From sequence record ON286972: a stretch of DNA of 64,000 nucleotides; one strand, written 5' to 3'. Position numbers and translations under genes: made by a program. The DNA comes from Escherichia phage A4. Each line of letters starts with the position of its first letter. Positions within the stretch are counted from its first letter, which is position 1. Shown piece after piece: positions 40,837-64,000 of the stretch. The notes beneath the pieces were generated by a model. The model did no database searches. It saw only the letters and a program-made list of their open reading frames with translations, and had not been told where the DNA came from.

Positions 40837-40844
40837 ATCCCAAT

Positions 40845-42521: not shown

Positions 42522-42527
42522 ACTACG

Positions 42528-43812: not shown

Positions 43813-43816
43813 AAAA

Positions 43817-43856
43817 GGGTTGACTTTTGTTGACCCTTTTTGCTATTCTATAAATA
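43817..43856 (+). promoter_or_regulatory. terminator hairpin with degenerate promoter region (TATAAATA box)
   Basis: GGGTTGAC-TTTT-GTTGACCC hairpin, T-tract, then CTATTCTATAAATATAG. Confidence 0.45.
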
Positions 43857-45441: not shown

Positions 45442-45450
45442 TAAAAAAAG

Positions 45451-45484
45451 AGGTTGACTTCGGTCAGCCTTTTTTGCTATAATA
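45451..45484 (+). promoter_or_regulatory. terminator/promoter cassette
   Basis: AGGTTGAC-TTCG-GTCAGCCT, TTTTT, TATAAT. Confidence 0.6.
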
Positions 45485-45511
45485 CTCTCATAACCTAAAA
45501 GGAGAAACTCT

Positions 45512-46061: not shown

Positions 46062-46392
46062 TTATATGTATGAATTAAACCTGGTATCGTTTATCGTATC
46101 AGGACTAGGATGGATGTACTATATGCTTGGGTATATTTTATTATTCTTCCGATACAATACATTCTACAAACGCTATTGGGATGATGCACCAATTCACTTC
46201 TTCGCATTTGTATTCTTAACTATGGCAGTGGGTGAAGTACTGCTAACTGGTATCCAAAGTACTGGTGGAATGATGTGCACACTAACAACATTCTTTGTTG
46301 TTTTTGGGACTGTAGTTTGGTTTTTCGCGTGGGGACTCTTCTCTTTGATTATGAAACTTGAGAAACTCCGAGACAAATTACCAGAGCGTTGA
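46039..46392 (+). CDS. integral membrane protein
   Basis: ORF track; several hydrophobic helices; start uncertain. Confidence 0.45.
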   Translation: MMNLIMNDYMYELNLVSFIVSGLGWMYYMLGYILLFFRYNTFYKRYWDDAPIHFFAFVFLTMAVGEVLLTGIQSTGGMMCTLTTFFVVFGTVVWFFAWGLFSLIMKLEKLRDKLPER

Positions 46393-46402
46393 TGAAAAGT
46401 AT

Positions 46403-46430
46403 TTGACAAACTCAACTAGTACTGTATAAT
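46403..46430 (+). promoter_or_regulatory. sigma70-type promoter
   Basis: TTGACA-N16-TATAAT with tagtactg spacer. Confidence 0.55.
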
Positions 46431-46477
46431 GTTTATCAAGGGGATGAACTTCTCATCCCTACAATCGAGGAACTACC

Positions 46478-47889: not shown

Positions 47890-47916
47890 TATGTACGCAT
47901 TGTATAATAAAGAAAA

Positions 47917-47950
47917 GGATTGACTTCAGTCAGCCCTTTTTTCTATAATC
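47917..47950 (+). promoter_or_regulatory. terminator/promoter cassette
   Basis: GGATTGAC-TTCA-GTCAGCCC, TTTTTT, TATAAT, then conserved CATTTCATC. Confidence 0.55.
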
Positions 47951-47977
47951 ATTTCATCGAAACGAGAGGATGAATAC

Positions 47978-48639: not shown

Positions 48640-48645
48640 TATAAG

Positions 48646-48679
48646 GGGTTGACTTCGGTCAGCCCTTTTTGCTATAATC
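48646..48679 (+). promoter_or_regulatory. terminator/promoter cassette
   Basis: GGGTTGAC-TTCG-GTCAGCCC, TTTTT, TATAAT, CATTTCATC. Confidence 0.6.
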
Positions 48680-48704
48680 ATTTCATCAAATTAAGAGGTG
48701 ATAC

Positions 48705-50631: not shown

Positions 50632-50637
50632 ACAAAA

Positions 50638-50671
50638 GGGTTGACTTCGGTCAGCCCTTTTTGCTATAATT
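50638..50671 (+). promoter_or_regulatory. terminator/promoter cassette
   Basis: GGGTTGAC-TTCG-GTCAGCCC, TTTTT, TATAAT, TATTTCATC. Confidence 0.6.
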
Positions 50672-50698
50672 ATTTCATCAACTGATGAGGACAACGAA

Positions 50699-51698: not shown

Positions 51699-52031
51699 AT
51701 GATTAATTTATTTTCAACTGAGGTTATGATTAAAATTACATTAGTATACATATGTCTATTCGTATACTACCACGCTCTCATCGGAATCTTGTGGTTCTTT
51801 AAGAAAGGTCGTATTCTTGAGAAATTGTACCCAGACTATATGATATTGTATACAATTGTCCAGGGTGTAGGAATAGTACTGGGAATTCTAGTGCACTTGA
51901 TATATTTGTTTGAACCACACCTTCCGTGTATTACACAATACATTGTATTCGGAACTACTATTATGTGGCTTGTAATGATGGGTGTGTATGGTCTGTATTT
52001 GTACAGGAAACGTATAGTGGGAGATTTCTAA
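51699..52031 (+). CDS. small integral membrane protein (110 aa)
   Basis: ORF track; multiple TM helices. Confidence 0.5.
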   Translation: MINLFSTEVMIKITLVYICLFVYYHALIGILWFFKKGRILEKLYPDYMILYTIVQGVGIVLGILVHLIYLFEPHLPCITQYIVFGTTIMWLVMMGVYGLYLYRKRIVGDF

Positions 52032-52384
52032 TGCAAGAGGTTATTAAATGGTTGACAACCAGTGATATTGCTAGTACACTGAACTATGTACTCATTATCT
52101 TATATCCGTTTTTGATGGTTCTAAACTTCATTGGATGGTATTTCAAACGTCCAATTTACTACAAGATTAATAATTCAGAGTACTATGAAAGTGTTGTAAT
52201 TGCAACCTCAATCACGTATACTATGGGTGCGGTTCTTACAGTCATAGGATTAGGTCAAGGTGATAATCTTAACTTTATGCTATGTACCTTTGTTATGATA
52301 TGTATTCCAACACTAATTGTAATTCTATCGAATATTGTGTGGAAAAAAATGTTATTTGCACGCAACAAAATACCGGAGGCATAA
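52031..52384 (+). CDS. small integral membrane protein (117 aa)
   Basis: Track ORF 51926..52384 trimmed to ATG 52031 after GGGAG; contains WYFKRPIYYKI. Confidence 0.5.
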   Translation: MQEVIKWLTTSDIASTLNYVLIILYPFLMVLNFIGWYFKRPIYYKINNSEYYESVVIATSITYTMGAVLTVIGLGQGDNLNFMLCTFVMICIPTLIVILSNIVWKKMLFARNKIPEA

Positions 52385-52719
52385 TGGAGTACTTTATCAG
52401 TTTACTACCGTGGTACTTGAAAGTAAGTACAATTTACTACATCATTTCCGCTGGGTTTTATTTCTTGATGTGGTTCTTTAAACGTCCAATCAGTGAATTC
52501 ATCGATAATCATATGATGAGTTTTAAACTTCACTGCTGGTTTTGGTCATCGTCAGTGATGCCATTCATCCATTACGGAATTATCAGTACTGGTAAACGTT
52601 CTAATGGTGAAATCATTTCCTTGGGTTTTTACTGGATATCGACTATTGTTTACATTGGTGTGCTTTTGTATCCATTTGTAGTTAAACTACGAAACTCTAT
52701 CCCAGATCACAGGAAATAA
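52384..52719 (+). CDS. small integral membrane protein (111 aa), paralog of preceding gene
   Basis: Track ORF 52282..52719 trimmed to ATG 52384 after GGAGG; contains WFFKRPISEFI. Confidence 0.5.
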   Translation: MEYFISLLPWYLKVSTIYYIISAGFYFLMWFFKRPISEFIDNHMMSFKLHCWFWSSSVMPFIHYGIISTGKRSNGEIISLGFYWISTIVYIGVLLYPFVVKLRNSIPDHRK

Positions 52720-52720
52720 T

Positions 52721-53041
52721 ATGAAGATTCAATTTATTCTTTTCACAGTAAGTGCATTCTACTTTTGGGTTTGCTGGATTGGTTTTCTCTTTGCACTAAA
52801 ACCATTTGACTTCTATGCAAAGCAGTGTAAAAATGCTGCTGTTGGTAATGTAGCTTTTACATTGCTTAGTACATTATGGGTAGTACTGATTATATTCAAT
52901 CCACCTGATAATGATTTGGAAATGTCATTGTGTACATTATTTGCAGGACTGTGTGTATTCGCAGCATTCTGTAGTTATATTGGAAAGTTATGTTCTTTGG
53001 TATCAAATTTCCATCGTAAACAAAAAGATAAGAGGGTATAA
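52721..53041 (+). CDS. small integral membrane protein (106 aa)
   Basis: ORF track. Confidence 0.5.
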   Translation: MKIQFILFTVSAFYFWVCWIGFLFALKPFDFYAKQCKNAAVGNVAFTLLSTLWVVLIIFNPPDNDLEMSLCTLFAGLCVFAAFCSYIGKLCSLVSNFHRKQKDKRV

Positions 53042-53424
53042 TGTACACAACAATATATGTTATTCTTAATATCCTAAGTGCATGTCTAACAATAGGTGCA
53101 TTAATATACATTGGAAAGTTCTTTTGTGTAAAGTTCGTCGAAGATGTGTATGAGGATATTGAATCCGACTACGAATCTAAGTGCTTCTTCCATGTTGGAT
53201 ATATCATTTGCTTAGTAACCACTATCTTCACATGGATTGTATACGTATTCGGGATTGGAATCACTTCAATTGGTGAACCAGTACTGTGCATTATTGGATT
53301 AGTGTTTTCTTCAATATTCGGGTTATTGTTCATGATTATTCTTATGTATAATTTAATCTGTACTGCTATTGTTCCTTTCTTTTATGAAATTCACAATAAC
53401 ATTAAACGTAAGAAACGAGGTTAA
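53041..53424 (+). CDS. small integral membrane protein (127 aa)
   Basis: ORF track. Confidence 0.5.
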   Translation: MYTTIYVILNILSACLTIGALIYIGKFFCVKFVEDVYEDIESDYESKCFFHVGYIICLVTTIFTWIVYVFGIGITSIGEPVLCIIGLVFSSIFGLLFMIILMYNLICTAIVPFFYEIHNNIKRKKRG

Positions 53425-53426
53425 TT

Positions 53427-53780
53427 ATGTTTTCTCCTGCTGGACAAGTTATATTCATGGTATGTACACTGGTATTCTTTATGTTGTCTGTACTATTTGT
53501 GATGAAATTCTTTCACATGAAACCATTCAGTACTTGGTATGATAATATTGTGTACTATATTGGTAATGCTATAACACTCTTTTCAGTTGCATACTATTTC
53601 GGTTATTTTGCAATGCTATTTGGGTTATTACTTGAAGCTCGTGCATTGCTTGTAGCTGGTATGGTGGCAGATTTAATGTGTCTAACACTAGCTTGTATTG
53701 GATTTACTGTATGTATGTCGTTAACCATTTTTGACAAATTATGTAAACTACACAAACGTTTAGGTGAGAGGATGAAATAA
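53427..53780 (+). CDS. small integral membrane protein (117 aa)
   Basis: ORF track. Confidence 0.5.
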   Translation: MFSPAGQVIFMVCTLVFFMLSVLFVMKFFHMKPFSTWYDNIVYYIGNAITLFSVAYYFGYFAMLFGLLLEARALLVAGMVADLMCLTLACIGFTVCMSLTIFDKLCKLHKRLGERMK

Positions 53781-54163
53781 TGACTTACCGTGATTACTTT
53801 TGTATTTTTGAAATTGCAGTATTCGCTTTAGGTTCAGTCTGGTTACTTCTATACTACTTCTGTATTAATCCAGTATTCAATTGGGTTCGTCGTGCTGAAC
53901 AAAGTAGTGCTGGACAAATAGCAGTTGTTATGGGTATGACATATTATATGTTCGCCGTGGCTTCTGTTGTTATTGAAGTAATATTTGGTGGCATGAATGG
54001 TGATGATGGGGCAACGTTCTATGGATTCGTAACATTCTTTAGTGTGCTGATTCCGTGTGGTGCTCTTATTATTACTGCGTTCTATTGGCTATATCGTGGT
54101 GTTAAGAAGCTGGAATCAATTCACGTAGATATGCGTTCAAAACGAATGGGGATTGACAAATAA
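53780..54163 (+). CDS. small integral membrane protein (127 aa)
   Basis: ORF track. Confidence 0.5.
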   Translation: MTYRDYFCIFEIAVFALGSVWLLLYYFCINPVFNWVRRAEQSSAGQIAVVMGMTYYMFAVASVVIEVIFGGMNGDDGATFYGFVTFFSVLIPCGALIITAFYWLYRGVKKLESIHVDMRSKRMGIDK

Positions 54164-54714
54164 TGAAACGAAGTTCTAATGTCATTCGCGAACGATTTCG
54201 TAAAGTAAAAACTATTAAGTACGGGACTATTGCTCTTGTACTTAGTAGTACTTTTATTATGACAGGATGTGAACGCTCTGAAGATATTTCTGTATATCAG
54301 AATGTGGACCAATGTAAAAGAAGTGGTAGCAATCCGGTACAGTGTGAAGATGATTATAAAAAAGCACTAACTGAATCGGAAAAGGTAGCACCAAAATATA
54401 GTTCACAAAGTGATTGCTCTAGTGATTTTGGTAATCAGTGTCAACAGCATAGCTCTGGATTCTTTTGGATGCCAATTATGAGTGGATTCCATAGTAGTGG
54501 TAATGGGTTTGCTAGTCAACCACTATACAACTCTAAAGGGAACTACTATGATGCTGGTGGTAACTCCTACGGTAGCAGTACTGCAAAAGGTACAACACGT
54601 ACTGTATCAAGTTCCGCATTAGCTCCAAAACCTCCTACAACGACCACAATCACCCGCAATGGGTTTGGGTCTTCAGTAGCCAGAAGTGCCGCTCACACGA
54701 GTTCTGGTGGATAA
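54163..54714 (+). CDS. lipoprotein (lipobox IMTGC), Ser/Gly/Thr-rich C-terminus
   Basis: N-terminus MKRSSNVIRERFRKVKTIKYGTIALVLSSTFIMTGC; ATGA overlap with upstream gene. Confidence 0.6.
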   Translation: MKRSSNVIRERFRKVKTIKYGTIALVLSSTFIMTGCERSEDISVYQNVDQCKRSGSNPVQCEDDYKKALTESEKVAPKYSSQSDCSSDFGNQCQQHSSGFFWMPIMSGFHSSGNGFASQPLYNSKGNYYDAGGNSYGSSTAKGTTRTVSSSALAPKPPTTTTITRNGFGSSVARSAAHTSSGG

Positions 54715-54715
54715 T

Positions 54716-54745
54716 AAAAAAGCCCACATTAAGTGGGCTTTTTGT
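54716..54745. terminator. bidirectional intrinsic terminator between convergent gene blocks
   Basis: AGCCCAC-ATTAA-GTGGGCT hairpin flanked by AAAAA and TTTTGTT. Confidence 0.6.
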
Positions 54746-56769
54746 TATTTGTGTTTTATGTGTAAAGTGTCTAATATTGTATTGAACAATGATTTAGCAG
54801 AAATCATGATTACTTGATCAAAATCTTTAGTATAAGAAATATTAGCAGTACTGGAAGAATCTTTCACCTCATCCGGTAATGCATCAAACTCTTCTTTTTC
54901 CATAATCTTTTCAAGTTCTTCACGAGAAATGGCTTTTACGTTTTCAATAGTCCTTAGTTGTATATTATAATCTTTATAATACGAAACTAAGTTCGTTGCG
55001 TATGAACCATCTTTAGATGCTGTTCCAGTAAAATCATAACATCCTGTATCAGTACTAACCCAATCGATTTTCCCTGAACTACCACTATATACACCTTTGT
55101 TGAACTTAATGTTAACAACATCACCAATAGTTTTCAATATACCACCTTTACATTCATTAAATGCGTTTAATTGATAACTTGTAGTCATATAGAATTTCGG
55201 TTCTAATGTAACAGTATCACCTACAGTTGCTTTCATATCAGAAACACTTAAGAACAATTCATTAAATCCTTTTGAATAAGTCTTGGTAATTGTTGTTCCA
55301 TCCCTGTTAGTTACTGTGTATTCTAAGTCCAATTCACAAATACTATTCAATGATAAGTAAGGGATATCAAATTTATCAGTACTAGCATCATAAGGACATC
55401 TTGAGGATGGTAGTATACCAGTAGGGTTTGGTACGTATTGAACTTTTGTTAACTCATACCCGCTTGCATTCGCTGGTGTAACTGTAATAGACGGTGTAGA
55501 TATTCCTTTCATTCCACAGAAGTATATGTTATCTGGAAAATCATTTATTACGAAGTCAGTGACAGGAATATCATAAGTATCTTTATCAGTCCAATTAAGA
55601 ACAACATTAGAACTGGTTGGATCAACAATATGTTCACTAGAACCACAGAAATATACTGATTTGGTATTAGTAATCATTAGTAATGTTTTGGATGATGAGT
55701 TCAATTCAAGAACATCTTTCACTTCAAGACCAGATGGTAATGTCAATGGTAACTTCGTAAATGATGTTAAATCTTGTTCATCTTTAACACCACTAGTCCC
55801 CGCCGGAAACTTACCTGAACCATAGAAAACACCTTTATTCGTCATGAAATACATGAACGGGGTTGATGTTCCTTTGTCAAATAGTTGAATGTCATCACAT
55901 GTTAAACCATCAGGTAAATCCACTTTAGATGGAGTTCTATAAACACCAGGCTTAATACCACCTTCACCATTACTTACATCACCTAGTACATATAAATCTT
56001 TACCTAGTTTCAAGAACATTGATTTATTTTTAGCACACAAGAATGTATCATATGATTTATCATCAATTGGTAGCTTGGTATATTCGGTGTATGTAGGCAT
56101 TGAATCATCAATCCACGAACTATCACCACTAATGTAAATGTGATTGTTTCTGTCAATATAATATGAATACACATCAGTACTGTTCATATATAAAGCATTT
56201 AGTGCATTTGTTTTCACTAAGTGATTGAACTTAAGAACTTGTTTTCCATCGTACTTATGGGAGTTGACACCAATATCACCATTTAGGCTACTACCAATTG
56301 AATATATATGACCACGTGGTAATAGAACTTGAACACCACTTTTGGTTAAATTATATTTGGAGTGCAAGAGATCGTTATATACAACTCTAACTTTCTTAAA
56401 GATATCAGTACATTCAATCCACGATTTAGATGGTGTACCATCCATTCCTATTATTGCCGGATCACCATAATAATAAGCTTTATTTTCATATGATATTTTA
56501 AAAGATGATTTACCATCTTTTGTATTAGCACTGAAGTACACATCTTTACTATCTTTAATTGGATAAGTACTATTCTCTACAAAAGTATTATATGAGATAT
56601 CGTTGTTAGCACTATTAAGAACAAAAGAAGTAGATGTACTATTGGACTTATAGACTGCTACGGAAGATGTATCACTGAAATCAATTTTAGTGAACGTATC
56701 TTTGTATGTTTCGTTTAATAATCCTACATAAAAAACATCAGTGCCATCCATCAGTAACGAATATAGCAT
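54745..56769 (-). CDS. RCC1-like repeat protein, possibly the C-terminal part of a frameshifted gene continuing from 56738..57682
   Basis: ORF track; no RBS before its ATG; frame opens 29 nt upstream of the stop of the preceding minus-strand ORF. Confidence 0.55.
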   Translation of the reverse strand: MLYSLLMDGTDVFYVGLLNETYKDTFTKIDFSDTSSVAVYKSNSTSTSFVLNSANNDISYNTFVENSTYPIKDSKDVYFSANTKDGKSSFKISYENKAYYYGDPAIIGMDGTPSKSWIECTDIFKKVRVVYNDLLHSKYNLTKSGVQVLLPRGHIYSIGSSLNGDIGVNSHKYDGKQVLKFNHLVKTNALNALYMNSTDVYSYYIDRNNHIYISGDSSWIDDSMPTYTEYTKLPIDDKSYDTFLCAKNKSMFLKLGKDLYVLGDVSNGEGGIKPGVYRTPSKVDLPDGLTCDDIQLFDKGTSTPFMYFMTNKGVFYGSGKFPAGTSGVKDEQDLTSFTKLPLTLPSGLEVKDVLELNSSSKTLLMITNTKSVYFCGSSEHIVDPTSSNVVLNWTDKDTYDIPVTDFVINDFPDNIYFCGMKGISTPSITVTPANASGYELTKVQYVPNPTGILPSSRCPYDASTDKFDIPYLSLNSICELDLEYTVTNRDGTTITKTYSKGFNELFLSVSDMKATVGDTVTLEPKFYMTTSYQLNAFNECKGGILKTIGDVVNIKFNKGVYSGSSGKIDWVSTDTGCYDFTGTASKDGSYATNLVSYYKDYNIQLRTIENVKAISREELEKIMEKEEFDALPDEVKDSSSTANISYTKDFDQVIMISAKSLFNTILDTLHIKHK

Positions 56770-57682
56770 TTCTATTATTACATAAAGAAGTAATATTTTT
56801 TACTACTTTATTTGAATTATAGTTTGGTAACTTCTTTAATCCACGAACAAAATTATCACAAATAATACCAGTACCATAGAAGTTATAATCTTTATCACAG
56901 TATATAAATGCTGTATCATATGGTGAAGTACTTAAATTCTTATAGAATGGGAATGGAGTGAATGTGAATTGTAGAACCTTACGCAATTCCCCTACTGTCT
57001 CTGTTGGGAATTGTCTGTTTTTATTATTACCAATAAAAACAACTCTATCTGTTAGGAATGTGTACATAATTCCATATGGTTTTACGTACAAATCATTATA
57101 TCCCAATGATAATTTAGTTGGTGATGTTAGTGGTCCTGAGTTTATTTTGGTTTGATTAATTGAAAACTCATTAGAATTATAACCAGCCCCATATGTATTA
57201 CCATTAGTACTTAAATAATATACAGTAGCTTCCCCTGCTCCAAGAAAAGTCTTTACATCAGTTGCTAACGTTTTTTGGAAAGTTGGATAAAATTTATTAT
57301 ATGTTCCCGTTCCCATCATCAGTTCACCATTGCGGTTATGACCACGAGCATATAGAATACCTTTGTCTGTATCTAAGAAGAACATACCATTATATGTTTT
57401 GTAAATCTTACCTTTTGTAATATCGAAATTGGAAAAATCATCACTAATATCAATGAATATTGTCTCAAGATTATCTTCAAGGGAGTTTAGAGATTTACCA
57501 CAATACCATACTGAGTTATCTTTTTTAACAGCAACACAACCACACGGACTGGCATCAAAATATGTTACATCGGAAAGAACCAGAGATAAGTTCTTTGTAC
57601 TGCAATAGTTATCCATTGCATATAAATCGGAATCTTTAAGTATATATACGGAATTCCCAACCGCTTTAATCGAATTTATCAT
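56738..57682 (-). CDS. RCC1-like repeat protein (N-terminal part or separate gene)
   Basis: Track ORF 56738..57772 trimmed to ATG 57682 (MINSIK...) after GAGGA RBS; G.N..GELMMGTG-type repeats. Confidence 0.55.
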   Translation of the reverse strand: MINSIKAVGNSVYILKDSDLYAMDNYCSTKNLSLVLSDVTYFDASPCGCVAVKKDNSVWYCGKSLNSLEDNLETIFIDISDDFSNFDITKGKIYKTYNGMFFLDTDKGILYARGHNRNGELMMGTGTYNKFYPTFQKTLATDVKTFLGAGEATVYYLSTNGNTYGAGYNSNEFSINQTKINSGPLTSPTKLSLGYNDLYVKPYGIMYTFLTDRVVFIGNNKNRQFPTETVGELRKVLQFTFTPFPFYKNLSTSPYDTAFIYCDKDYNFYGTGIICDNFVRGLKKLPNYNSNKVVKNITSLCNNRNAIFVTDGWH

Positions 57683-57901
57683 GTTTATATCCTCATAAAT
57701 TGATACCAATTCTAATGTATTTACCCACTTAAAGTACAAAAAATGATCAATTAAATGGGGAATCTTTAACAAATGAATTCATGATGTACTTGATGAATTG
57801 CCCATACCAACGGATTCCTCAGTCCCAGCATACCACATGGTATTATCGAACTTTTTATCATTGTAGTATCATAACCACACCAAACATCATCAACATTAGT
57901 A

Positions 57902-59254
57902 TTACAACAATTGTATTTCTGTGAGTGTTTGATATGTTGTACCGTTGTACACACCTCTCCAATATACCCTACCTTCAGTACTAACCACTAATAATCCATA
58001 TGTTGTAAACCCAAGAGTACCACCAACATACATAGCATCTTTAATTCGAATACCAATGTCTTCATATGTAAATGAAGCGACTGCTCCCGCTTGCCACGAA
58101 GGACTAGCGTAGTAATCACTATAAACACCATGTGCTTTATATATTGATGTTGTTCCTGGTTCAAAAATTACAGTTCCACAGTAGTTCATTCGTATTTTAG
58201 TACTGGATGAAGTCGGTACATTTATACCTATGCCATCTTTTATCCCTGTAGTTAGGACGTTAAAACCACCCGCCACACGGTTGACGTCATTCTCACCGAT
58301 TAAAAACATACCAACGTTGTAGCCCATATAATATACACTGCTACTGCCATTCCAGAAAGAAAAACCACCACCATTACCACAGCGATATAGTTGTGAATTT
58401 GAGCAGTACATCATACCTTCGTTTGTCGCATCAAATTCATCTGCTGTTCCTATTGTAGCTACAGTAGTCCACGTTTTAATCACTTGGTTTGTACTAGCTG
58501 GTGTTTGTATACCATATCGTATATTATATCCCTTACCAACGATTGTACCATCTTCTAATTTAGCATAAAGTACAGGTCTATTACCAACAAAATACATATT
58601 ATTGTGTGACATGTCTATTGTGCATCTTAATGAAACTACTTTTTGTGTCAATTGATTATCTTTAGTAAAAGAAGTAAAGTAGTAATCCGATGTTGAGTTG
58701 TTTATTAAACCTTGTATTGACAATCCCATATACCAGATTTCACCATTGCTGTTTAATGCTGCCAAAATACAACTATATTTTGAAGTGTATGCTGGTGATG
58801 TTGTTGAAGTTGCTGGTCCTTTATCATATCCACCACAGAATACCATCTCCACAACTTCACCTACGTTCGAAAAATAAGAAGATACATTGATAAAACCATT
58901 TGTTATAAAAGGTGCTGTATTCATACTTGAATGTGTGAATATCCCATTTGCATATACACCACAAAAATGATATGAACCATCATTATCTTGGACTATTATT
59001 CCATTTGATAGTAACCAAAAATTGTTTACATTTTTTCTTACTAATTCAACTCCTGCACCATTGGTTGGTGTTATACCAAAAGAAACATATTTTGTTTGAC
59101 CAATACCATATAAATTTCCATTAGTTGCTAGTATTGCACCAAACCAGTTCCCACCACCATTCCTATCATGACCCATACCAATGGAGTCAAATTTCTTCAC
59201 AGTAGGGACTTCAACTTTATTCCCATACTCTAGCATTCTAACAAAAGGTAACAT
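57902..59254 (-). CDS. RCC1-like beta-propeller repeat protein (putative receptor-binding or tail-fibre-like), paralog E
   Basis: Track ORF 57902..59320 trimmed to ATG 59254 (MLPFVRMLEYGN) after AGGAGG; track N-extension reads through the terminator hairpin. Confidence 0.65.
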   Translation of the reverse strand: MLPFVRMLEYGNKVEVPTVKKFDSIGMGHDRNGGGNWFGAILATNGNLYGIGQTKYVSFGITPTNGAGVELVRKNVNNFWLLSNGIIVQDNDGSYHFCGVYANGIFTHSSMNTAPFITNGFINVSSYFSNVGEVVEMVFCGGYDKGPATSTTSPAYTSKYSCILAALNSNGEIWYMGLSIQGLINNSTSDYYFTSFTKDNQLTQKVVSLRCTIDMSHNNMYFVGNRPVLYAKLEDGTIVGKGYNIRYGIQTPASTNQVIKTWTTVATIGTADEFDATNEGMMYCSNSQLYRCGNGGGFSFWNGSSSVYYMGYNVGMFLIGENDVNRVAGGFNVLTTGIKDGIGINVPTSSSTKIRMNYCGTVIFEPGTTSIYKAHGVYSDYYASPSWQAGAVASFTYEDIGIRIKDAMYVGGTLGFTTYGLLVVSTEGRVYWRGVYNGTTYQTLTEIQLL

Positions 59255-59318
59255 ATATCCTCCTTTATTCATTATATTATATTTAATCAAAAAAGAAAAG
59301 CCAGTACAGAGTACTGGC
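59255..59318 (-). promoter_or_regulatory. repeated intergenic cassette: terminator hairpin, TATAAT box, AGGAGG RBS
   Basis: Minus-strand read: GCCAGTACTCTGTACTGGC, T-tract, GATTAAATATAATATAATGAATAAAGGAGG, ATG; near-identical at four sites. Confidence 0.5.
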
Positions 59319-59329
59319 ATTTAAAATAA

Positions 59330-60505
59330 TCAAAATGTAGGAAGTTTGAATTCTCTCATAACAGATGAACTGCTTGCAGATACATTATCTGGTGATTTCC
59401 CTGCGTAGTATAATTTATTATCAATGAACATATACAATGTTGCATCATTTCCTGCTACAAGTGATTCACTTTTCTTAAATTTAACACCACTAGGTAAAAT
59501 TGCTTCAACAAATGAACCTGATTCTCTTGTAGTATTATTTGCCAATTGACCATTGTTATTATAACCAGTACTATAAATTTTACCTGAACTATAATATACG
59601 AGTCCACGAGTACTAGTGTTTTCTATTCGAATGAATTCACTATCATCTGGGACTGTAGTTGATAGAACTGGGTTTAACTTATAAGCAGATGATACATTAT
59701 TATTACCCAATTGACCATAACCTTGAAAGCCTAGTGTATACATAGGACATGATTCTGGTGTGCCTTTTGTTATAATACCAATATAATTCACACTACAAAA
59801 AATGTCTATTGCTTCTGTAATAGGTGTACCCTTATATTGAACCCAAGGGAATACATACGATTGTTGCTTACCATTTCCCAAAGTACCGGAAGTTGTTGTC
59901 CCAGTACGCCACATTGTATCATCAAGTTTAATAATCCAGTTAGCTGTCGTTATCGATGAACAGAATTTTTTAACATTATCCACTAAAAATGTAAATTGAT
60001 TATAATATGATGCAGTGTTTATACCAAACTTAGCACCAGTATTATCACCTAACAAATATAAACTATTATCTGTACCTAAAATCAAAGCATAATCATAACC
60101 CACGTATATATCTTTAATTCTTGAAATTCCAAATTGTGTAAAATAGCTTGTACATTCTGTGAATGTTGTTATATTATTGGTTGTATTATTACCTAGCCAT
60201 TTATCTAAACCACTATAAAAGAATCTATCATCATTTGTGCGTATTAGACAAAAAGCGTTCATTGTACTGCACCAAAAATCTTTAACATTGCTATATATTT
60301 TTGTCCATTCAGTTACTGCATTAGTATGACCTAAACCAAAAATTCCACCATTCTGAAGACCAATAGCCCATATTGAACCATTTTTATCAAGCATCATTGT
60401 ACATGTATGTGAATAACCACCCGATGGTGTAACTAATTTAACAAAATTGGGAATATATGGTAAAACTTTATTTCCATAATCCAACATTCTAACAAAAGGT
60501 AACAT
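59330..60505 (-). CDS. RCC1-like beta-propeller repeat protein, paralog D
   Basis: Trimmed to ATG 60505 (MLPFVRMLDYGN); repeats such as GIFGLGHTNAVTEW, GYGQLGNNNVSSAY. Confidence 0.65.
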   Translation of the reverse strand: MLPFVRMLDYGNKVLPYIPNFVKLVTPSGGYSHTCTMMLDKNGSIWAIGLQNGGIFGLGHTNAVTEWTKIYSNVKDFWCSTMNAFCLIRTNDDRFFYSGLDKWLGNNTTNNITTFTECTSYFTQFGISRIKDIYVGYDYALILGTDNSLYLLGDNTGAKFGINTASYYNQFTFLVDNVKKFCSSITTANWIIKLDDTMWRTGTTTSGTLGNGKQQSYVFPWVQYKGTPITEAIDIFCSVNYIGIITKGTPESCPMYTLGFQGYGQLGNNNVSSAYKLNPVLSTTVPDDSEFIRIENTSTRGLVYYSSGKIYSTGYNNNGQLANNTTRESGSFVEAILPSGVKFKKSESLVAGNDATLYMFIDNKLYYAGKSPDNVSASSSSVMREFKLPTF

Positions 60506-60569
60506 AATTCCTCCTTTATTCATTATACTATATTTAATCAAAAAAGAAATGCCAGCATCAAGTACTGGC
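60506..60569 (-). promoter_or_regulatory. repeated intergenic cassette (terminator, TATAAT, RBS)
   Basis: Hairpin GCCAGTACTTGATGCTGGC, T-tract, TATAGTATAATGAATAAAGGAGG. Confidence 0.5.
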
Positions 60570-60576
60570 ATTATTG

Positions 60577-61767
60577 TTATAGTTGTCTTGGTGTATCAAG
60601 TACATATCTATTTGTACTAGGACCACCATCATCATACGTTCCGGTTGAATATATATTTTTCATATCAGCAGTTAGAAAAGTACGATACGAACCGCGATAT
60701 ATTTTTATTTTATCATACATAGAATATGATATTTCTGCTGGCATTGGACATATAGTAAATCTACCAATAGTAACATTAGAACCAACACCCAACGAACCAG
60801 CATAACTACTCGCATTTAAACCAGTTGCATATACACCAGTACTCGTAACTAGTATACTAGATTGTGTTGGGTATCCTGTATGAATTGAATACAAAGTTCC
60901 AGTTGGTAATGTCGTACTATTGCTCCCTAATACAGCAAGTGCCGAACTGGTTGTGGTATTGTTACCCCATGCACCATTACTCGCTAAACCACCAACTAGA
61001 AACTGACGTGCACCAGTACTTGGATTCTCAACCAAAGCACTGACTGCACCACTTGAGCATCCAGTGTATTGTAACGTTTTTGTGTATGTTGTACTTGGTT
61101 TATATAAAGTATATTCATTAAATGGTGTCCATGTGGTACTGGTACTTATACCTGACGTACCACCACCAATATATAAATTATTTTGTGTATCAAAAAACAT
61201 TACACAGTTATTTGTTGACTGTATTTGTGCAATATCAACATTAGGCGTGACAGCTTTTACAAATGATCCATCTGTTATTTGTTGAGTACTACCAGTACCA
61301 TCAGCGAATTGTCTAGCCCCACTCCAACCAGTACTCCATATTGTATTATTATCCATTAATACCGTAAACCACGTAGTACCTCCATACATCTGTTTAATTG
61401 AAGTACTTGAACTTTGCGTGTACAAATTTTCAATATATTGGTTATAACTTAAAAACGTAGTAGTACTAGTTGGTAAACCAATATGATCACCATATCCACA
61501 ATAAAAATAATTTGAGTCATTATCTTGTACTAACAAAGTTCCTTGTGACACCCAGAAATCTTTAACATTTTCTCTAATTAAGGTCCATGACTTTACTGCA
61601 TTACTATTTCCTATACCAAACTTCCCAAAACTATTATTTCCACGTGCGTATAGTTGACCATCCGTATAAAGAACGACAACATCTAAATCAGTTGGTGTTA
61701 TTTTCTTAATTTGAATAGGGACTGGTGTTATATTCCCATAATCAAACATTCTAACAAAAGGTAACAT
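60577..61767 (-). CDS. RCC1-like beta-propeller repeat protein, paralog C
   Basis: ORF track; starts MLPFVRMFDYGN; GKFGIGNSNAVKSW repeats. Confidence 0.65.
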   Translation of the reverse strand: MLPFVRMFDYGNITPVPIQIKKITPTDLDVVVLYTDGQLYARGNNSFGKFGIGNSNAVKSWTLIRENVKDFWVSQGTLLVQDNDSNYFYCGYGDHIGLPTSTTTFLSYNQYIENLYTQSSSTSIKQMYGGTTWFTVLMDNNTIWSTGWSGARQFADGTGSTQQITDGSFVKAVTPNVDIAQIQSTNNCVMFFDTQNNLYIGGGTSGISTSTTWTPFNEYTLYKPSTTYTKTLQYTGCSSGAVSALVENPSTGARQFLVGGLASNGAWGNNTTTSSALAVLGSNSTTLPTGTLYSIHTGYPTQSSILVTSTGVYATGLNASSYAGSLGVGSNVTIGRFTICPMPAEISYSMYDKIKIYRGSYRTFLTADMKNIYSTGTYDDGGPSTNRYVLDTPRQL

Positions 61768-61832
61768 ATTTCCCTCCTTTATTCATTATACTATATTTAA
61801 TCAAAAAAGAAAAGCCAGTATCAAGTACTGGC
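61768..61832 (-). promoter_or_regulatory. repeated intergenic cassette (terminator, TATAAT, RBS)
   Basis: Hairpin GCCAGTACTTGATACTGGC, T-tract, TATAGTATAATGAATAAAGGAGGG. Confidence 0.5.
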
Positions 61833-61838
61833 CTATAT

Positions 61839-63008
61839 TTAAACTGGTGAATCTAATACAAATTCTAAACTACTAATGCCACCATATGTGACATTTGTCC
61901 CTGTGCTATATACAAAATTACCATCAGTTATATAAGTTCGGTTATACCCACCTGCCATCTGCGACTTACTATAATCAAACCCATCAGGAACGATTGCTTT
62001 GGTATATACTAATGCATTATTAGATGTACCAATACCTAACATACCAGCTCCTGAAGATTTATTGTAGCCGCAACAATATATACCATCTGTTGTAGCAATA
62101 ACTTGGTTATAATATGAAGTAATGTTAGCAATGCTTACTACATCACCGGGTGGCATTAGTGAAGCAGTTTGAACCTCAAATGCTCTATAATCACTGAGAG
62201 AACCATTTATCCCATCTGCTTGTGCACCAAATATTCTCGAACCGCCATTTGCGATGATGGTTTTACCAGTGGGATCAGTACCAATTGCCATTGCCATTGA
62301 AGTACTATTCTCCATATAGTACTTGATATTAATTGTATTTCTTAAGCTGGTAGGAGCACCATAATATATAGTATATAACTTACCTCCTGAACTTGTAACT
62401 GCATTTACTCTTCCTGTATAAAATAGCCATCCTTGGTTTGTAACATAACCGTGCATTAAATTACTTGCAAACAATTTAACAGGTAATTGATCTGCTGCGG
62501 TCGGAACAGTACTTTTGACGAATTTTCTAGCAACATTGTTAGTTGTTGTCCCATCACCCAACTGACCATCACCCCCTGCTCCAGTACTCCATATTGTTTG
62601 GTCTGTTAGTAATACACTTGTAGTCTGATAACTAACTGCTATATCTAATATTGGTAATGTTAACGTATCGAATGTTGGCATAGCAGAAGTCCATATTGAT
62701 ACTGCTGCCCCTGGCATACCAACAGTTGTTGAACTTCCACTGTACCATATTTCATCATTGCTTTTCTTAATAACTATCGACGTGGCTCCCATCCAAAAAT
62801 CTTGAACATCAGAAGTGCTAAAAGTCCATGTAGTAACAATATTTTTGTGACCTAAACCCAAAAGACCATTTGTATTCTCACCACGCACATATAAATCACC
62901 ACTGTTTGTTAAAACAGCAACATTATAGTTGTTAGCTAGTATTTTTTTAATATTTGGTTTAGCAGGTGCAATATTCCCATACTCTAACATTCTTACAAAA
63001 GGTAACAT
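61839..63008 (-). CDS. RCC1-like beta-propeller repeat protein, paralog B
   Basis: Track ORF 61839..63170 trimmed to ATG 63008 (MLPFVRMLEYGN); GLLGLGHKNIVTTW, GQLGDGTTTNN repeats. Confidence 0.65.
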   Translation of the reverse strand: MLPFVRMLEYGNIAPAKPNIKKILANNYNVAVLTNSGDLYVRGENTNGLLGLGHKNIVTTWTFSTSDVQDFWMGATSIVIKKSNDEIWYSGSSTTVGMPGAAVSIWTSAMPTFDTLTLPILDIAVSYQTTSVLLTDQTIWSTGAGGDGQLGDGTTTNNVARKFVKSTVPTAADQLPVKLFASNLMHGYVTNQGWLFYTGRVNAVTSSGGKLYTIYYGAPTSLRNTINIKYYMENSTSMAMAIGTDPTGKTIIANGGSRIFGAQADGINGSLSDYRAFEVQTASLMPPGDVVSIANITSYYNQVIATTDGIYCCGYNKSSGAGMLGIGTSNNALVYTKAIVPDGFDYSKSQMAGGYNRTYITDGNFVYSTGTNVTYGGISSLEFVLDSPV

Positions 63009-63072
63009 AATTCCTCCTTTATTCATTATATTATATTTAATCCAAATAAGAAAGCCAGTATCAAGTACTGGC
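63009..63072 (-). promoter_or_regulatory. repeated intergenic cassette (terminator, TATAAT, RBS)
   Basis: Hairpin GCCAGTACTTGATACTGGC, T-tract, TATAATATAATGAATAAAGGAGG. Confidence 0.5.
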
Positions 63073-63078
63073 ATTGTG

Positions 63079-64000
63079 TTATTTCGGTAAATCAATTTTA
63101 GTAAAGACTGCAACATCCTCGCTTGCACCGGGAATGGCGTAATACGTTCCAGTACTATATACATCTCCATTTTTGGTTAATATTGAAGTCAAACCATCAC
63201 TAAAAAGAACATCCCTAATCTCACTAACTTCAACGGGTAATTGTAAATTTGTAGCACTATATATAGCACCAGTTTGAGAATTGTTTAATCCCAAACCACG
63301 GTTCGCCCCAACACCCTTCTGATATGTACTGGTAATTACCATTTGTGTAGCAGTATTTAATGCAGGTGAATTCGTCATAAACAACGGAGAACTATTAGGC
63401 AAAGTACTTACAGGAACTGCACGGAATGTAGTCGTACCTGAACTAAGAAAGTTTGGAGTTTGACCACATACGAAATATGATGTACCATTATAGTAATTAA
63501 ATGCATTACCACCAATCGCTGCATCGATTACACCAGAACTACGTAATCCCCAAGTGTTAATTTGTGTTTGGTCCCCTGTACCATGCTGCCCACTGCTATT
63601 CCATCCAGAACTATATAGCTTATTATCTAATGTAATATACATACTATCATTTGCATTAGTCATTACTTTACGCACGTTAGTAGCACATTGAGTTAATGTG
63701 TAAATCGATGATGAGCCAATACCTAAAGAACCACGATATCCATTATCTCCTGCACCATAGAGTACTGAACTAGTGCTAAGTACAAATATTAAACCATTTG
63801 TACATACAATATTAGCAATTTCACTCACTGGTATAGCATTGGTAAACCAATTAGTCCTTTCAACTAATATAGTACTGTAAGAAGTAGTTGTAGAAGATGA
63901 GAACCAGTACGTTTCACCCGATGTCCATATCGTATTATCATTTTTAATAATAACAAGTGTACGACCACCCACGAAAAAATTAGAAACATCTGAACTTACT
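63079..64000 (-). CDS. RCC1-like repeat protein, paralog A, 5'-truncated by window edge
   Basis: Frame stays open upstream of the track start (GTG 63972) to the window end; GYRGSLGIGSSS, GQHGTGDQTQINTW repeats. Confidence 0.55.
   Translation of the reverse strand, partial: VSSDVSNFFVGGRTLVIIKNDNTIWTSGETYWFSSSTTTSYSTILVERTNWFTNAIPVSEIANIVCTNGLIFVLSTSSVLYGAGDNGYRGSLGIGSSSIYTLTQCATNVRKVMTNANDSMYITLDNKLYSSGWNSSGQHGTGDQTQINTWGLRSSGVIDAAIGGNAFNYYNGTSYFVCGQTPNFLSSGTTTFRAVPVSTLPNSSPLFMTNSPALNTATQMVITSTYQKGVGANRGLGLNNSQTGAIYSATNLQLPVEVSEIRDVLFSDGLTSILTKNGDVYSTGTYYAIPGASEDVAVFTKIDLPK

What the first reader, a model, noticed from the sequence alone, without database searches (positions are those of the whole stretch)
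59255..63072. Near-identical 100-bp cassettes (terminator hairpin, TATAAT box, AGGAGG, conserved first 12 codons) between the propeller genes
Each paralog boundary (59255-59318, 60506-60569, 61768-61832, 63009-63072) carries almost the same sequence on the minus strand: GCCAGTACT..TACTGGC hairpin, T-tract, GATTAAATATAGTATAATGAATAAAGGAGG, then ATGTTACCTTTTGTTAGAATG. These direct repeats, spaced about 1.2 kb apart, give each gene its own terminator, promoter-like -10 (no good -35; possibly read by the phage sigma factor) and RBS. They are also ideal substrates for homologous recombination that would delete, duplicate or shuffle distal domains. The six-frame track misreads them as N-terminal extensions (MPVLDTGF...).
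Basis: seen in the sequence. Interest (0 to 1): 0.65.

Follow-up and report, generated by a model that had tools for sequence, protein, structure and literature searches.

The report
Shuffling cassettes between phage propeller genes
A ~110-base repeat (terminator hairpin, promoter-like box, ribosome site, first 12 codons) separates very different propeller-protein genes in a giant E. coli phage, and comparison with relatives shows it is the seam where these genes are swapped, gained and lost.

Summary
Four ~109-nt direct repeats lie on the minus strand at 59213-59321, 60464-60572, 61727-61835 and 62967-63075. They are ~90% identical, while the RCC1-like beta-propeller genes they separate share no more than 31% amino-acid identity.

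The window is a divergent Asteriusvirus-like jumbo coliphage. The cassette occurs in 4-17 copies in 42 phage records, and in the genomes examined always inside this one gene array.

Across eight genomes the array holds 5-17 genes of at least 38 types, in different orders and with different neighbours. Similarity to orthologues starts and stops inside the cassette. Adjacent window genes have different nearest relatives. N-terminal codon haplotypes and synonymous sites show concerted evolution.

The hairpin plus T-tract is a good in-silico intrinsic terminator, with sense-strand G.U wobbles. TAAATA-N3-TATAAT is kept in a second cassette family, at the first gene of each array and in distant genera, but it has no -35 box. 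Promoter activity is inferred, not shown.

The closest known system is the PeSL cassette of T4-type phages. This is a new variant: no sigma-70 -35 box, a paralogous gene family, and extension into the coding sequence.

The parts
59289..59318 (-). Cassette 1 (between genes B and A): terminator-like hairpin GCCAGTAC-TCT-GTACTGGC (59300-59318) plus T-tract TTTTCTTTTTT (59289-59299)
   Evidence: RNA fold -12.4 kcal/mol, z -5.7.
59271..59285 (-). Cassette 1: promoter-like core TAAATA-TAA-TATAAT
   Evidence: No -35 box.
59259..59264 (-). Cassette 1: Shine-Dalgarno AGGAGG
59219..59254 (-). Cassette 1: start codon and conserved codons 1-12 (MLPFVRMLEYGN) of gene A
60540..60569 (-). Cassette 2 (between genes C and B): hairpin GCCAGTA-CTTGA-TGCTGGC (60551-60569; extended stem 60548-60572) plus T-tract (60540-60550)
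   Evidence: RNA fold -12.9 kcal/mol, contains a U.G wobble.
60522..60536 (-). Cassette 2: TAAATA-TAG-TATAAT
60510..60515 (-). Cassette 2: AGGAGG
60470..60505 (-). Cassette 2: codons 1-12 (MLPFVRMLDYGN) of gene B
61803..61832 (-). Cassette 3 (between genes D and C): hairpin (61814-61832) plus T-tract (61803-61813)
   Evidence: RNA fold -11.5 kcal/mol.
61785..61799 (-). Cassette 3: TAAATA-TAG-TATAAT
61773..61778 (-). Cassette 3: AGGAGG
61732..61767 (-). Cassette 3: codons 1-12 (MLPFVRMFDYGN) of gene C
   Evidence: This promoter and N-terminal segment is 98% identical to EC.P1/fEgEco12, while the gene body is PBECO4-like.
63044..63072 (-). Cassette 4 (between genes E and D): hairpin (63054-63072) plus T-tract TTTCTTATTT (63044-63053)
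   Evidence: RNA fold -10.0 kcal/mol.
63025..63039 (-). Cassette 4: TAAATA-TAA-TATAAT
63013..63018 (-). Cassette 4: AGGAGG
62973..63008 (-). Cassette 4: codons 1-12 (MLPFVRMLEYGN) of gene D
57902..59254 (-). Gene A, 450 aa, array type 'E'. RCC1-like (phrog_4219), no Pfam hit
   Evidence: Best matches EC.P1 94.3% and Turkey3 94.2%.
59330..60505 (-). Gene B, 391 aa, type 'G'. RCC1-repeat beta-propeller
   Evidence: Best match PBECO4 95.5%.
60577..61767 (-). Gene C, 396 aa, type 'A'. RCC1-like 7-bladed propeller
   Evidence: Model pLDDT 85.8. Foldseek top hits UVR8, RPGR, HERC2, RCC1. Best match PBECO4 95.5%; G17 only 87.5%.
61839..63008 (-). Gene D, 389 aa, type 'I'. RCC1-repeat propeller
   Evidence: Best match G17 96.3%; absent from PBECO4.
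63079..64000 (-). Gene E, type 'C', 3' part only (runs off the window end)
57683..57901 (-). Decayed RCC1-like gene fragment. The cassette expected after gene A is missing here
54745..57682 (-). Distal array genes F (56738-57682, 314 aa) and G (54745-56769, 674 aa). phrog_4219 members without the cassette or the MLPF N-terminus
   Evidence: No nucleotide counterpart in the phage collection.

Best explanation
Each repeat is a composite regulatory-plus-coding cassette that punctuates an array of RCC1-like beta-propeller genes in an Asteriusvirus-like jumbo phage.

Read 5' to 3' on the coding strand, it ends the upstream transcript (7-10-bp hairpin plus U-tract). It probably restarts transcription at TAAATA-N3-TATAAT, a box with no -35 hexamer and so probably dependent on a phage factor. 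It then supplies a strong Shine-Dalgarno site and encodes the invariant N-terminal dodecapeptide M-L-P-F-x-R-M-x-x-Y-G-N. This makes most genes self-contained expression modules.

Because the same ~110 nt flanks every module, the phage's T4-type homologous recombination machinery uses the cassettes as crossover and gene-conversion sites. Within a genome and between co-infecting relatives this deletes, inserts, transposes and swaps whole propeller genes, and it homogenises the cassettes themselves.

Shown here:
- the repeat and its anatomy;
- its restriction to this array;
- the reassorted arrays;
- the breakpoints;
- concerted evolution.

Inferred: terminator and promoter activity, which RNA polymerase holoenzyme is used, and the recombination mechanism and its present-day rate.
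For: **Repeat versus gene bodies**
- Cassettes are about 89-91% identical in every pairing class.
- Paralog bodies share 15-31% amino-acid identity or give no BLASTP hit.

**Distribution**
- 42 phage records carry the cassette, with 4-17 copies each.
- In the complete 352-kb EC22.5-2 genome all 16 copies lie in the one array.

**Shuffling**
- Array orders are: window C-I-A-G-E; ph0011 D-I-A-E-N; PBECO4 U-C-b-B-A-P-M-G-c-d; UE-S1 B-D-F-C-M-H-A-G-N; G17 e-U-C-I-B-f-A-H-g-h-i-j; EC.P1, fEgEco12 and Turkey3 are longer.
- There are order conflicts: C before or after B, M and H before or after A, R before D or after F.
- ph0011 has a single cassette between A and E where the window has A-cassette-G-cassette-E.

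**Breakpoints**
- When the upstream neighbour differs, identity to the orthologue rises from 35-60% at -80..-41 to about 92% at -40..-1.
- Identity collapses just past the downstream cassette when the next gene differs.

**Mosaic ancestry**
- Type I is closest to G17 (96.3%) and absent from PBECO4.
- The adjacent type A is closest to PBECO4 (95.5%), with G17 at 87.5%.
- Type E is closest to EC.P1 and Turkey3.
- The backbone is only 85-88% identical over 34% of the first 25 kb.

**Concerted evolution**
- Synonymous codons are fixed far beyond codon bias: CCT in 79/81 copies against 0.30 usage in the bodies; GGG in 57/76 against 0.11.
- Pro-3 is CCA or CCG in 13/13 copies in PHA46 and Munch.
- Unrelated paralogs share one N-terminal haplotype per lineage, while orthologues differ between lineages. 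Mutual information with genome is 1.76 against a null of 1.39, P<0.0005.

**Terminator**
- All four copies are flagged as terminator-like.
- dG is -10 to -12.9 kcal/mol, z -3.5 to -5.7.
- 90% of cells pair. One-sided stem changes are mostly sense-strand G.U (13) rather than unpaired (3).

**Promoter**
- TAAATA-N3-TATAAT is kept at the first gene of every array, where the hairpin is absent.
- It is also kept in the divergent cassette family b and in PHA46 and Munch, while the spacers diverge.
- It is lost exactly at tight 8-15-nt junctions.

**Expression**
- Six phAPEC6 array proteins, including the last two genes of the array, are in the virion proteome (PMC7247149 Table 1; mapped).
Against: - There are no transcript, 5'-end or reporter data for any Asteriusvirus.
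- The promoter-like box has no -35 hexamer and no TGn extension.
- The strict motif is not clearly enriched outside the array: 7 hits in 352 kb, against roughly 3-5 expected by chance. So it is not a recognisable genome-wide promoter class.
- The hairpins are modest, and the U-tract is interrupted by a C.
- No gene type is present twice in any genome. That means there is no trace of recent unequal crossing-over, and shuffling may be rare.
- The genome-specific signal over the whole cassette is small: 0.903 against 0.888.
- Some breakpoints lie inside gene bodies. The window type-A gene switches its closest relative around +40 to +240.
- The higher identity of array genes compared with the backbone could partly reflect stronger purifying selection.
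Confidence: 0.72

Rival explanations
1. One operon with punctuation. The array is transcribed from the promoter of its first gene. The hairpins are attenuators or 3'-end and processing stabilisers of a polycistronic mRNA. TAAATA..TATAAT is not an active promoter. The cassette is conserved mainly as a translation-initiation region.
For: - Tight 8-15-nt junctions without hairpin or box exist in relatives, so co-transcription clearly occurs.
- There is no -35 box.
- The hairpins are only -10 to -13 kcal/mol, with a C in the U-tract.
- The motif is not enriched elsewhere in the genome.
Against: - The same box is retained at the first gene of each array, which must have a promoter.
- It is the part that survives in the divergent family b and in other genera, while the neighbouring spacers change.
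- It disappears together with the hairpin at tight junctions, as expected if a terminator has to be followed by a restart.
- Products of the most distal phAPEC6 genes are detected after many hairpins.
- The leader plus codons show no significant or shared RNA structure: z +0.6 to -0.9.
Confidence: 0.17
2. Selection only. The cassette is identical everywhere because every nucleotide is functionally constrained. Recombination at the cassettes plays no special part, and arrays differ through unrelated illegitimate events.
For: Cassette identity is nearly the same within and between genomes. This is what uniform purifying selection would give.
Against: - Synonymous and spacer positions are homogeneous within a lineage but differ between lineages: CCT against CCA/CCG, TTA against ATA, and linked haplotypes GTT-TTTGATTAT, GCA-GTTAAGTAC and GCA-ATGAATTAT.
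- Orthologues carry different haplotypes that they share with non-orthologous neighbours.
- Every gene-order difference has exactly one intact cassette at the novel junction.
- Homology boundaries fall inside the cassette.
Confidence: 0.05
3. DNA-level palindrome. GCCAGTAC..GTACTGGC is a binding site for a dimeric regulator, nuclease or recombinase, or a cruciform, rather than an RNA terminator.
For: - The stem is a near-perfect palindrome.
- Loops occur in both orientations, which is neutral for a symmetric site.
- The core CAGTACTG also occurs in the spacer of an unrelated promoter family in the window.
Against: - One-sided stem substitutions are biased to sense-strand G.U pairs, 13 against 3. 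These would be A.C mismatches in the other strand and mismatches in duplex half-sites.
- Loop length varies from 3 to 8 nt, which changes half-site spacing.
- The T-tract is conserved on one side only.
- No integrase or recombinase is annotated in the flanks of seven arrays.
Confidence: 0.04
4. Recent tandem duplication. The repeats are simply the still-similar edges of recently duplicated genes.
For: The copies are tandem, regularly spaced at ~1.25 kb, and the genes are paralogous.
Against: - Gene bodies share at most 31% amino-acid identity or are undetectable by BLASTP.
- The same divergent gene types are 85-96% conserved across phages.
- So the duplications are ancient and the cassette similarity is maintained secondarily.
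Confidence: 0.02

Closest known systems
PeSL (promoter-early stem-loop) mobile regulatory cassettes of T4-type phages (Arbiol et al. 2010, PMC2839356; Comeau et al. 2014, PMC4122927)
   Same: - A repeated intergenic composite of about 100 bp: stop codon, stem-loop terminator, promoter, Shine-Dalgarno and start codon.
- Many copies per genome, concentrated in a hyperplastic region.
- Gene insertions, deletions and replacements between related phages have the cassette at the junction.
- The proposed mechanism is homologous recombination between cassettes, so each gene carries its own promoter and terminator.
   Different: - No sigma-70 -35 box. PeSLs carry full consensus early promoters. The window has such PeSL-like repeats elsewhere, GGGTTGACTTCGGTCAGCCC-N-TATAAT.
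- The flanked genes belong to one paralogous family of virion-associated propellers, not unrelated ORFans.
- The repeat extends 36 nt into the coding sequence and fixes a shared N-terminal peptide.
- The host phage is a Rak2-like jumbo phage.
- Mini-circles and promoter or terminator activity have not been tested here.
T-even internal-protein (IP) genes with a conserved capsid-targeting sequence (PMC3012670)
   Same: A highly diverse set of virion-packaged proteins that share only a short conserved N-terminal peptide. Here, diverse propellers share 12 N-terminal residues that lie outside the predicted fold. Several of the paralogs are low-abundance virion proteins.
   Different: - No conserved (L/I)-x-E protease site. 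Residue 9 is E, D, K or N.
- Location inside the capsid and ejection into the host are unknown.
- The proteins are about 40-kDa propellers, not small basic proteins.
Intrinsic (Rho-independent) terminators
   Same: A 7-10-bp stem with 4-5 G-C pairs, a 3-5-nt loop, and an immediately following T-rich tract. ARNold-predicted terminators are annotated at the same positions in the G17 record.
   Different: - The U-tract is interrupted (UUUUCUUUUUU).
- The element is fused to a restart module.
- Activity has not been measured.
T4-type late promoter TATAAATA and the predicted Rak2-like late motif ATAAATA (PMC5259590)
   Same: TAAATA equals positions 3-8 of TATAAATA. There is no -35 box. The genes encode virion-associated proteins.
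   Different: - The first two positions do not match (ATTAAATA, GGTAAATA, TGTAAATA).
- A second conserved hexamer, TATAAT, follows 3 nt later.
- No gp55 homologue was examined. The sigma factor in the window is a sigma-70-family protein with regions 2-4.

Membership tests
PeSL composite promoter/terminator cassettes | An intergenic motif of about 100 bp repeated many times in a genome | tested here: met
   4 copies in the window; 4-17 per genome in 42 records; 16 in the complete EC22.5-2 genome.
PeSL composite promoter/terminator cassettes | Contains a stable stem-loop able to terminate or attenuate transcription | tested here: met
   In silico only. Terminator-like scan; dG -10 to -12.9 kcal/mol, z -3.5 to -5.7; 90% of cells paired with a G.U bias. 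Activity is not testable with these tools.
PeSL composite promoter/terminator cassettes | Contains a sigma-70 consensus early promoter (-35 and -10 boxes, AT-rich upstream region) | tested here: not met
   A perfect TATAAT is present, but the best -35 candidates match 3/6 (TTTTCT), or use the hairpin arm CTGGC(A/T) with TATAGT as -10. True sigma-70 PeSL-like repeats exist elsewhere in the window.
PeSL composite promoter/terminator cassettes | Shine-Dalgarno site and start codon of the downstream gene at the 3' end | tested here: met
   AGGAGG, then 4-5 nt, then ATG in all copies.
PeSL composite promoter/terminator cassettes | Marks the junctions of gene insertions, deletions and replacements between related phages | tested here: met
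   Array type strings, junction table, nearest relatives, identity profiles.
PeSL composite promoter/terminator cassettes | Recombination between neighbouring cassettes yields mini-circles or deletions in populations | not testable with these tools
   This needs PCR or long-read data from lysates.
Intrinsic terminator | GC-containing stem, short loop, and a U-tract directly 3' of the stem | tested here: met
   The T-tract is conserved in 47 distinct copies.
Sigma-70 promoter | -35 TTGACA-like hexamer 16-18 nt upstream of the -10 box, or a TGn extended -10 | tested here: not met
   The bases before TATAAT are AGT or AAT, not TGn.
T4-type late promoter | TATAAATA at -10, read by a gp55-type sigma factor | tested here: inconclusive
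   6 of 8 positions match, and TAAATA is conserved in all cassette classes. gp55 dependence and the start site are not testable here.
RCC1-like beta-propeller proteins (the flanked genes) | Seven-bladed propeller built of RCC1 repeats | tested here: met
   Pfam RCC1 and RCC1_2 above their cut-offs for genes B and D; WD40_RLD hits below its cut-off. phrog_4219 for all seven genes. Model pLDDT 85.8. Foldseek to UVR8, RPGR, HERC2 and RCC1 with TM 0.6-0.78.
T4 internal-protein capsid-targeting sequence | Short conserved N-terminal peptide on otherwise unrelated virion proteins | tested here: met
   M1 L2 P3 F4 Y10 N12 are invariant across 35 aligned array proteins that share 15-31% identity with gene C apart from its five orthologues. 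Residues 1-10 have mean pLDDT 56 and lie outside the blades. Virion proteome.
T4 internal-protein capsid-targeting sequence | Cleavage by the prohead protease at a conserved (L/I)-x-E site; location in the capsid interior | tested here: not met
   Residue 9 varies among E, D, K and N. Location in the virion is not testable here.

The most novel reading that the evidence does not exclude
The cassette may be a plug-and-play module that couples expression signals to a 12-residue 'address' peptide directing any downstream propeller into the virion. This would be analogous to the capsid-targeting sequence of T-even internal proteins. On this reading the array is a recombining pan-library of at least 38 virion-delivered beta-propeller effectors or adhesins, concerned with anti-defence or host range. 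Co-infecting jumbo phages would reassort it by homologous exchange at the cassettes.
Probability: 0.25. Interest if true: 0.72.

Novelty: new variant of a known kind. Interest (0 to 1): 0.5.

Why it matters
- It extends the PeSL principle, in which repeated regulatory cassettes act as built-in recombination seams, from small early ORFans of T4-type phages to a family of virion-associated RCC1-like propellers in 350-kb jumbo phages. It also shows the repeat reaching into the coding sequence, so that a common N-terminal peptide travels with the expression signals.
- It explains why the RCC1-like ('DNA condensation') genes are among the most variable parts of Asteriusvirus genomes.
- It accounts for recurrent annotation errors at these junctions.
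- It gives a concrete handle for engineering, because any gene flanked by two cassettes should be exchangeable.
- It offers a way to ask what the propellers do.

Tried and rejected
- **General promoter of the phage.** Rejected for the strict form. The motif gives only the 4 cassette hits in the window and 56 hits in arrays against 3 in about 400 kb of flanks. In a whole genome it gives 13 in the array against 7 elsewhere, which is about chance.
- **Strong genome-wise clustering of whole cassettes.** Not found: 0.903 against 0.888. The concerted signal is confined to linked N-terminal codons and to between-genus synonymous differences.
- **Known RNA family.** Nothing near a gathering score. The best hit is preQ1-II at 29 bits against 47, E 0.09.
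- **Conserved RNA structure in the leader plus codons 1-15.** None. z is +0.6 to -0.9 and the folds differ between copies. A weak SD:CCUUUU pairing appears in two copies only and is not conserved in PHA46 or Munch.
- **Velcro-strand role for the N-terminus.** Not supported. The peptide is modelled as a low-confidence helix outside the blades.
- **Site-specific recombination (integron- or shufflon-like).** No recombinase is annotated in the flanks, and the repeats are direct and about 110 nt long.
- **Prior description in the literature.** Searches found no description of the cassette and no Asteriusvirus transcriptome.

Full report
**1. Observation**

The minus strand of window 57.9-64.0 kb carries a tandem set of genes separated by four copies of one ~109-nt sequence. 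The copies lie at 59213-59321, 60464-60572, 61727-61835 and 62967-63075, spaced 1251, 1263 and 1240 nt.

Aligned, each copy reads as follows:
- stop codon of the upstream gene, then a few nt;
- GCCAGTAC-(3-5 nt)-GTACTGGC;
- TTTTCTTTTTT;
- GATTAAATATA(A/G)TATAATGAATAAAGGAGG;
- 4-5 nt;
- ATG TTA CCT TTT GT(T/A) AGA ATG ... TAT GG(G/A) AAT.

Sub-motifs searched with up to 3 mismatches hit only these four places in 64 kb. TATAATGAATAAAGGAGG gives 4 hits against 0.28 expected, and 0 of 100 shuffles reach 4. The hairpin pattern gives 9 hits against 0.11 expected.

The real starts are the ATGs at 59254, 60505, 61767 and 63008. Mechanical ORF calls begin at the ATG inside the hairpin and add a false extension.

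**2. What the genes are**

- Genes B, C, D and E hit Pfam RCC1 / RCC1-like-domain models.
- Genes A, C, F and G were scanned against PHROGs and all fall in phrog_4219, 'regulator of chromosome condensation'.
- An AlphaFold model of gene C is a confident propeller, with pLDDT 85.8 and pTM 0.85.
- Its best PDB matches are UVR8, RPGR, HERC2 and RCC1, with TM up to 0.78.
- The conserved first ~10 residues are the least confident part (block mean pLDDT 56). They are modelled as a short helix outside the blades.

**3. Where the window comes from**

The region matches Asteriusvirus jumbo coliphages such as PBECO4, 121Q, phAPEC6 and G17. No deposited genome covers it as a whole.

The backbone is divergent. 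Only 34% of window 1-25000 aligns, at 85-88% identity. Window 52000-57950 has almost no nucleotide counterpart.

**4. The cassette elsewhere**

The 109-nt query finds 42 phage records with 4-17 places each. A profile search of seven fetched arrays and one complete 352-kb genome shows that all copies lie inside the homologous RCC1-like array.

The junction table distinguishes four classes:

| Class | Features |
|---|---|
| Full cassettes | 70-79-nt gap |
| Divergent family b | Same layout: CCAGTAC-TGAAATAT-GTACTGG, T-run, GTAAATAC.. TATAAT, GGAG |
| Tight junctions | 8-15-nt gap, keeping only the SD and the conserved codons |
| First gene of each array | No hairpin, but keeps TAAATATGATATAATGAATAAGGAGG |

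All 81 genes with the motif start M-(L/I)-P-F-x-R-... -(Y/F)-(G/A)-N.

Salmonella phages PHA46 and Munch belong to other genera. They have the same architecture, with MIPF.R..Y(G/A)N.

**5. Evidence that the cassettes are recombination seams**

*Gene types and order.* I clustered gene bodies (residues 21 to the end, at least 75% identity). This gives at least 38 types and the following arrays:

| Phage | Array |
|---|---|
| window | C I A G E (+2 unique) |
| ph0011 | D I A E N |
| PBECO4 | U C b B A P M G c d |
| UE-S1 | B D F C M H A G N |
| G17 | e U C I B f A H g h i j |
| EC.P1 | B J D F O C P Q A G E K L |
| fEgEco12 | B J D F R C Q M A H S T a K L |
| Turkey3 | B J V R D F O W X S T H E Y Z K L |

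Gene number varies from 5 to 17 between conserved flanks. Order conflicts rule out deletion alone: C versus B, M and H versus A, R versus D/F.

*Junctions.* Each novel junction carries exactly one cassette. For example, ph0011 has A|E where the window has A|G|E.

*Mosaic ancestry.* Window genes have different closest relatives:

| Window gene type | Closest relative(s) | Other genomes |
|---|---|---|
| C | G17 and PBECO4, 96.1% | |
| I | G17, 96.3% | absent from PBECO4 |
| A | PBECO4, 95.5% | G17 87.5% |
| G | PBECO4, 95.5% | absent from G17 |
| E | EC.P1 94.3%, Turkey3 94.2% | absent from PBECO4 and G17 |

*Identity profiles.* Homology begins inside the cassette when the upstream neighbour differs, and ends just past it when the downstream neighbour differs. 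The window type-A gene joins an EC.P1-like promoter and N-terminus (98%) to a PBECO4-like body, which is 98-100% identical beyond about +240.

**6. Concerted evolution**

- Cassettes are 89-91% identical in every comparison class. Paralog bodies share 15-31%.
- Synonymous codons are fixed far beyond codon usage: TTA 80/80, CCT 79/81 against 0.30, AGA 75/78 against 0.40, AAG 34/37 against 0.30, GGG 57/76 against 0.11.
- In PHA46 and Munch the Pro-3 codon is CCA or CCG in 13/13 copies.
- Linked haplotypes of codons 5 and 8-10 are shared by unrelated paralogs within a lineage and differ between orthologues. Types A, B, D and F carry GTT-TTTGATTAT in EC.P1, fEgEco12 and Turkey3. In UE-S1 and ph0011 most of them carry GGG-GTTAAGTAC. 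In PBECO4 and G17 types A and B carry GCA-ATGAATTAT. Mutual information with genome is 1.76 against a null of 1.39, P<0.0005.
- This pattern is what gene conversion or repeated crossover predicts. It is not what pure purifying selection predicts.

**7. Regulatory reading**

*Terminator.*
- All four copies pass the terminator-like scan.
- They fold at -10 to -12.9 kcal/mol.
- In 47 distinct copies 90% of cells pair. One-sided stem changes are mostly sense-strand G.U (UG 6, GU 3, UG 2, UG 2), against three unpaired cells in the core. One pair shows G-C to A-U double changes.
- This favours an RNA hairpin in the gene's own transcript. ARNold terminators are annotated at the same positions in the G17 record.

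*Promoter.*
- TAAATA-N3-TATAAT is the footprint shared by the main family, family b, the first-gene copies and the distant genera. The -10-to-SD spacer diverges meanwhile.
- There is no -35 box.
- Elsewhere the same window holds at least 8 canonical PeSL-like repeats with TTGACT-18-TATAAT, in which the -35 box sits in a stem-loop. So this phage does write sigma-70 promoters where it wants them.
- The cassette box is therefore probably a different, factor-dependent class. Which factor is unknown. ORF 31937-32899 is a sigma-70-family protein.
- Rak2-like phages are predicted to use a T4-like late motif, ATAAATA (PMC5259590).
- Promoter activity remains an inference.

**8. Expression context**

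In phAPEC6 the array genes are gp001-gp010. Six of them (gp003, 005, 006, 007, 009 and 010) are in the virion proteome, each with 1-4 unique peptides (PMC7247149 Table 1).

The GAP32 homologue is also a virion protein (PMC5259590).

Several paralogs are therefore expressed together, including the most distal genes. That is easier to explain with internal restarts than with read-through of many hairpins.

**9. Comparison with known systems**

The closest system is the PeSL of T4-type phages. PeSLs are ~100-bp composites of a stem-loop terminator, a sigma-70 early promoter, an SD and a start codon. They flank variable genes and mediate modular shuffling (PMC2839356 and PMC4122927).

The present cassette works like a PeSL but fails one defining feature: it has no sigma-70 -35/-10 early promoter. 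It also differs in flanking one paralogous family of virion-associated proteins, and in extending 36 nt into the ORF.

The shared N-terminal peptide on otherwise diverse virion proteins recalls the capsid-targeting sequence of T-even internal proteins (PMC3012670). However, no conserved protease site is present.

I found no paper describing the cassette. Public records annotate only isolated 'terminator' or 'repeat_region' features.

**10. Verdict**

The feature is real and far beyond chance. It is best explained as a PeSL-like terminator-restart-RBS-leader-peptide cassette that doubles as the recombination seam of a hypervariable propeller-gene array.

I rate it a new variant of a known kind, of moderate interest. 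The open points are experimental: transcript ends, the present-day recombination rate, and the role of the dodecapeptide.

Noticed in passing
window + strand: 32902-32946, 40798-40842, 41155-41199, 42525-42551, 43812-43856, 45446-45490, 47912-47956, 48641-48685, 50633-50677: A second, unrelated repeat family with textbook PeSL design: AAAAGGGTTGACTTCGGTCAGCCCTTTTTGCTATAAT. The stem-loop's 5' arm contains a consensus -35 box (TTGACT), TATAAT lies 18 nt downstream, and an SD and start codon follow. It sits upstream of small + strand genes.
   Followed up: partly
window + strand: 16537-16584, 16946-16993, 34797-34844, 46387-46434: A third repeated promoter family, cTTGAC(T/A)-N17-TATAATGTTT, with a conserved spacer. 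The spacer contains CAGTACTG, the same palindromic core as the RCC1-cassette hairpin.
   Followed up: no
Hairpin loops of the cassettes in the window and in L001-L007 (for example window 59308-59310 TCT against G17 H|g AGA): Loops occur in both orientations between copies: TCT/AGA, TTGA/TCAA, TGA/TCA, CTTGAT/ATCAAG. This looks like hairpin-mediated loop inversions by template switching, while the stem is preserved.
   Followed up: partly
window 57683-57901 (minus strand): A decayed RCC1-like gene fragment with frameshifts and stops (..NVDDVWCGYDTTMIK.. / ..DNTMWYAGTEESVGMGNSS..) replaces the cassette expected after gene A. nhmmer finds no cassette remnant.
   Followed up: yes
window 52000-57950: Distal array genes F and G (G overlaps F by 32 nt) and the DUF1190 gene 54163-54714 have essentially no nucleotide match in 50,697 phage records. 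The neighbouring cassette-flanked genes are 94-96% identical to known phages. The window's phage therefore looks like an undeposited, divergent Asteriusvirus relative.
   Followed up: partly
window 54717-54743: A strong bidirectional terminator-like hairpin, AAAAAGCCCAC-ATTAA-GTGGGCTTTTT, lies exactly where the minus-strand array converges with the + strand genes.
   Followed up: no
window 31937-32899 (+): A phage-encoded sigma-70-family sigma factor with regions 2, 3 and a weak region 4 (phrog_351). One of the PeSL-like hairpins follows it immediately, at 32902.
   Followed up: partly
window 14978-15151 and 15706-15879: A 174-nt direct repeat, 72% identical, with copies 728 nt apart. Not examined.
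   Followed up: no
L001 19986-20105 (PBECO4 AGC34973.1); L017 4987-5213 (PHA46 WVO01186 and WVO01185); L004 ~2865 (ph0011): Public annotations place spurious small ORFs or wrong starts over the cassettes. In ph0011 the type-I gene has its conserved start changed to TTG (..aatTTGTTACCTTTTGCGAGGATGG..) behind a degenerate family-b-like cassette.
   Followed up: partly
L001 22529-22615; L003 28052-28137; EC22.5-2 6699-6784: Each array ends with an orphan, truncated cassette: hairpin, box and SD (model positions 2-87) without a functional gene behind it.
   Followed up: no
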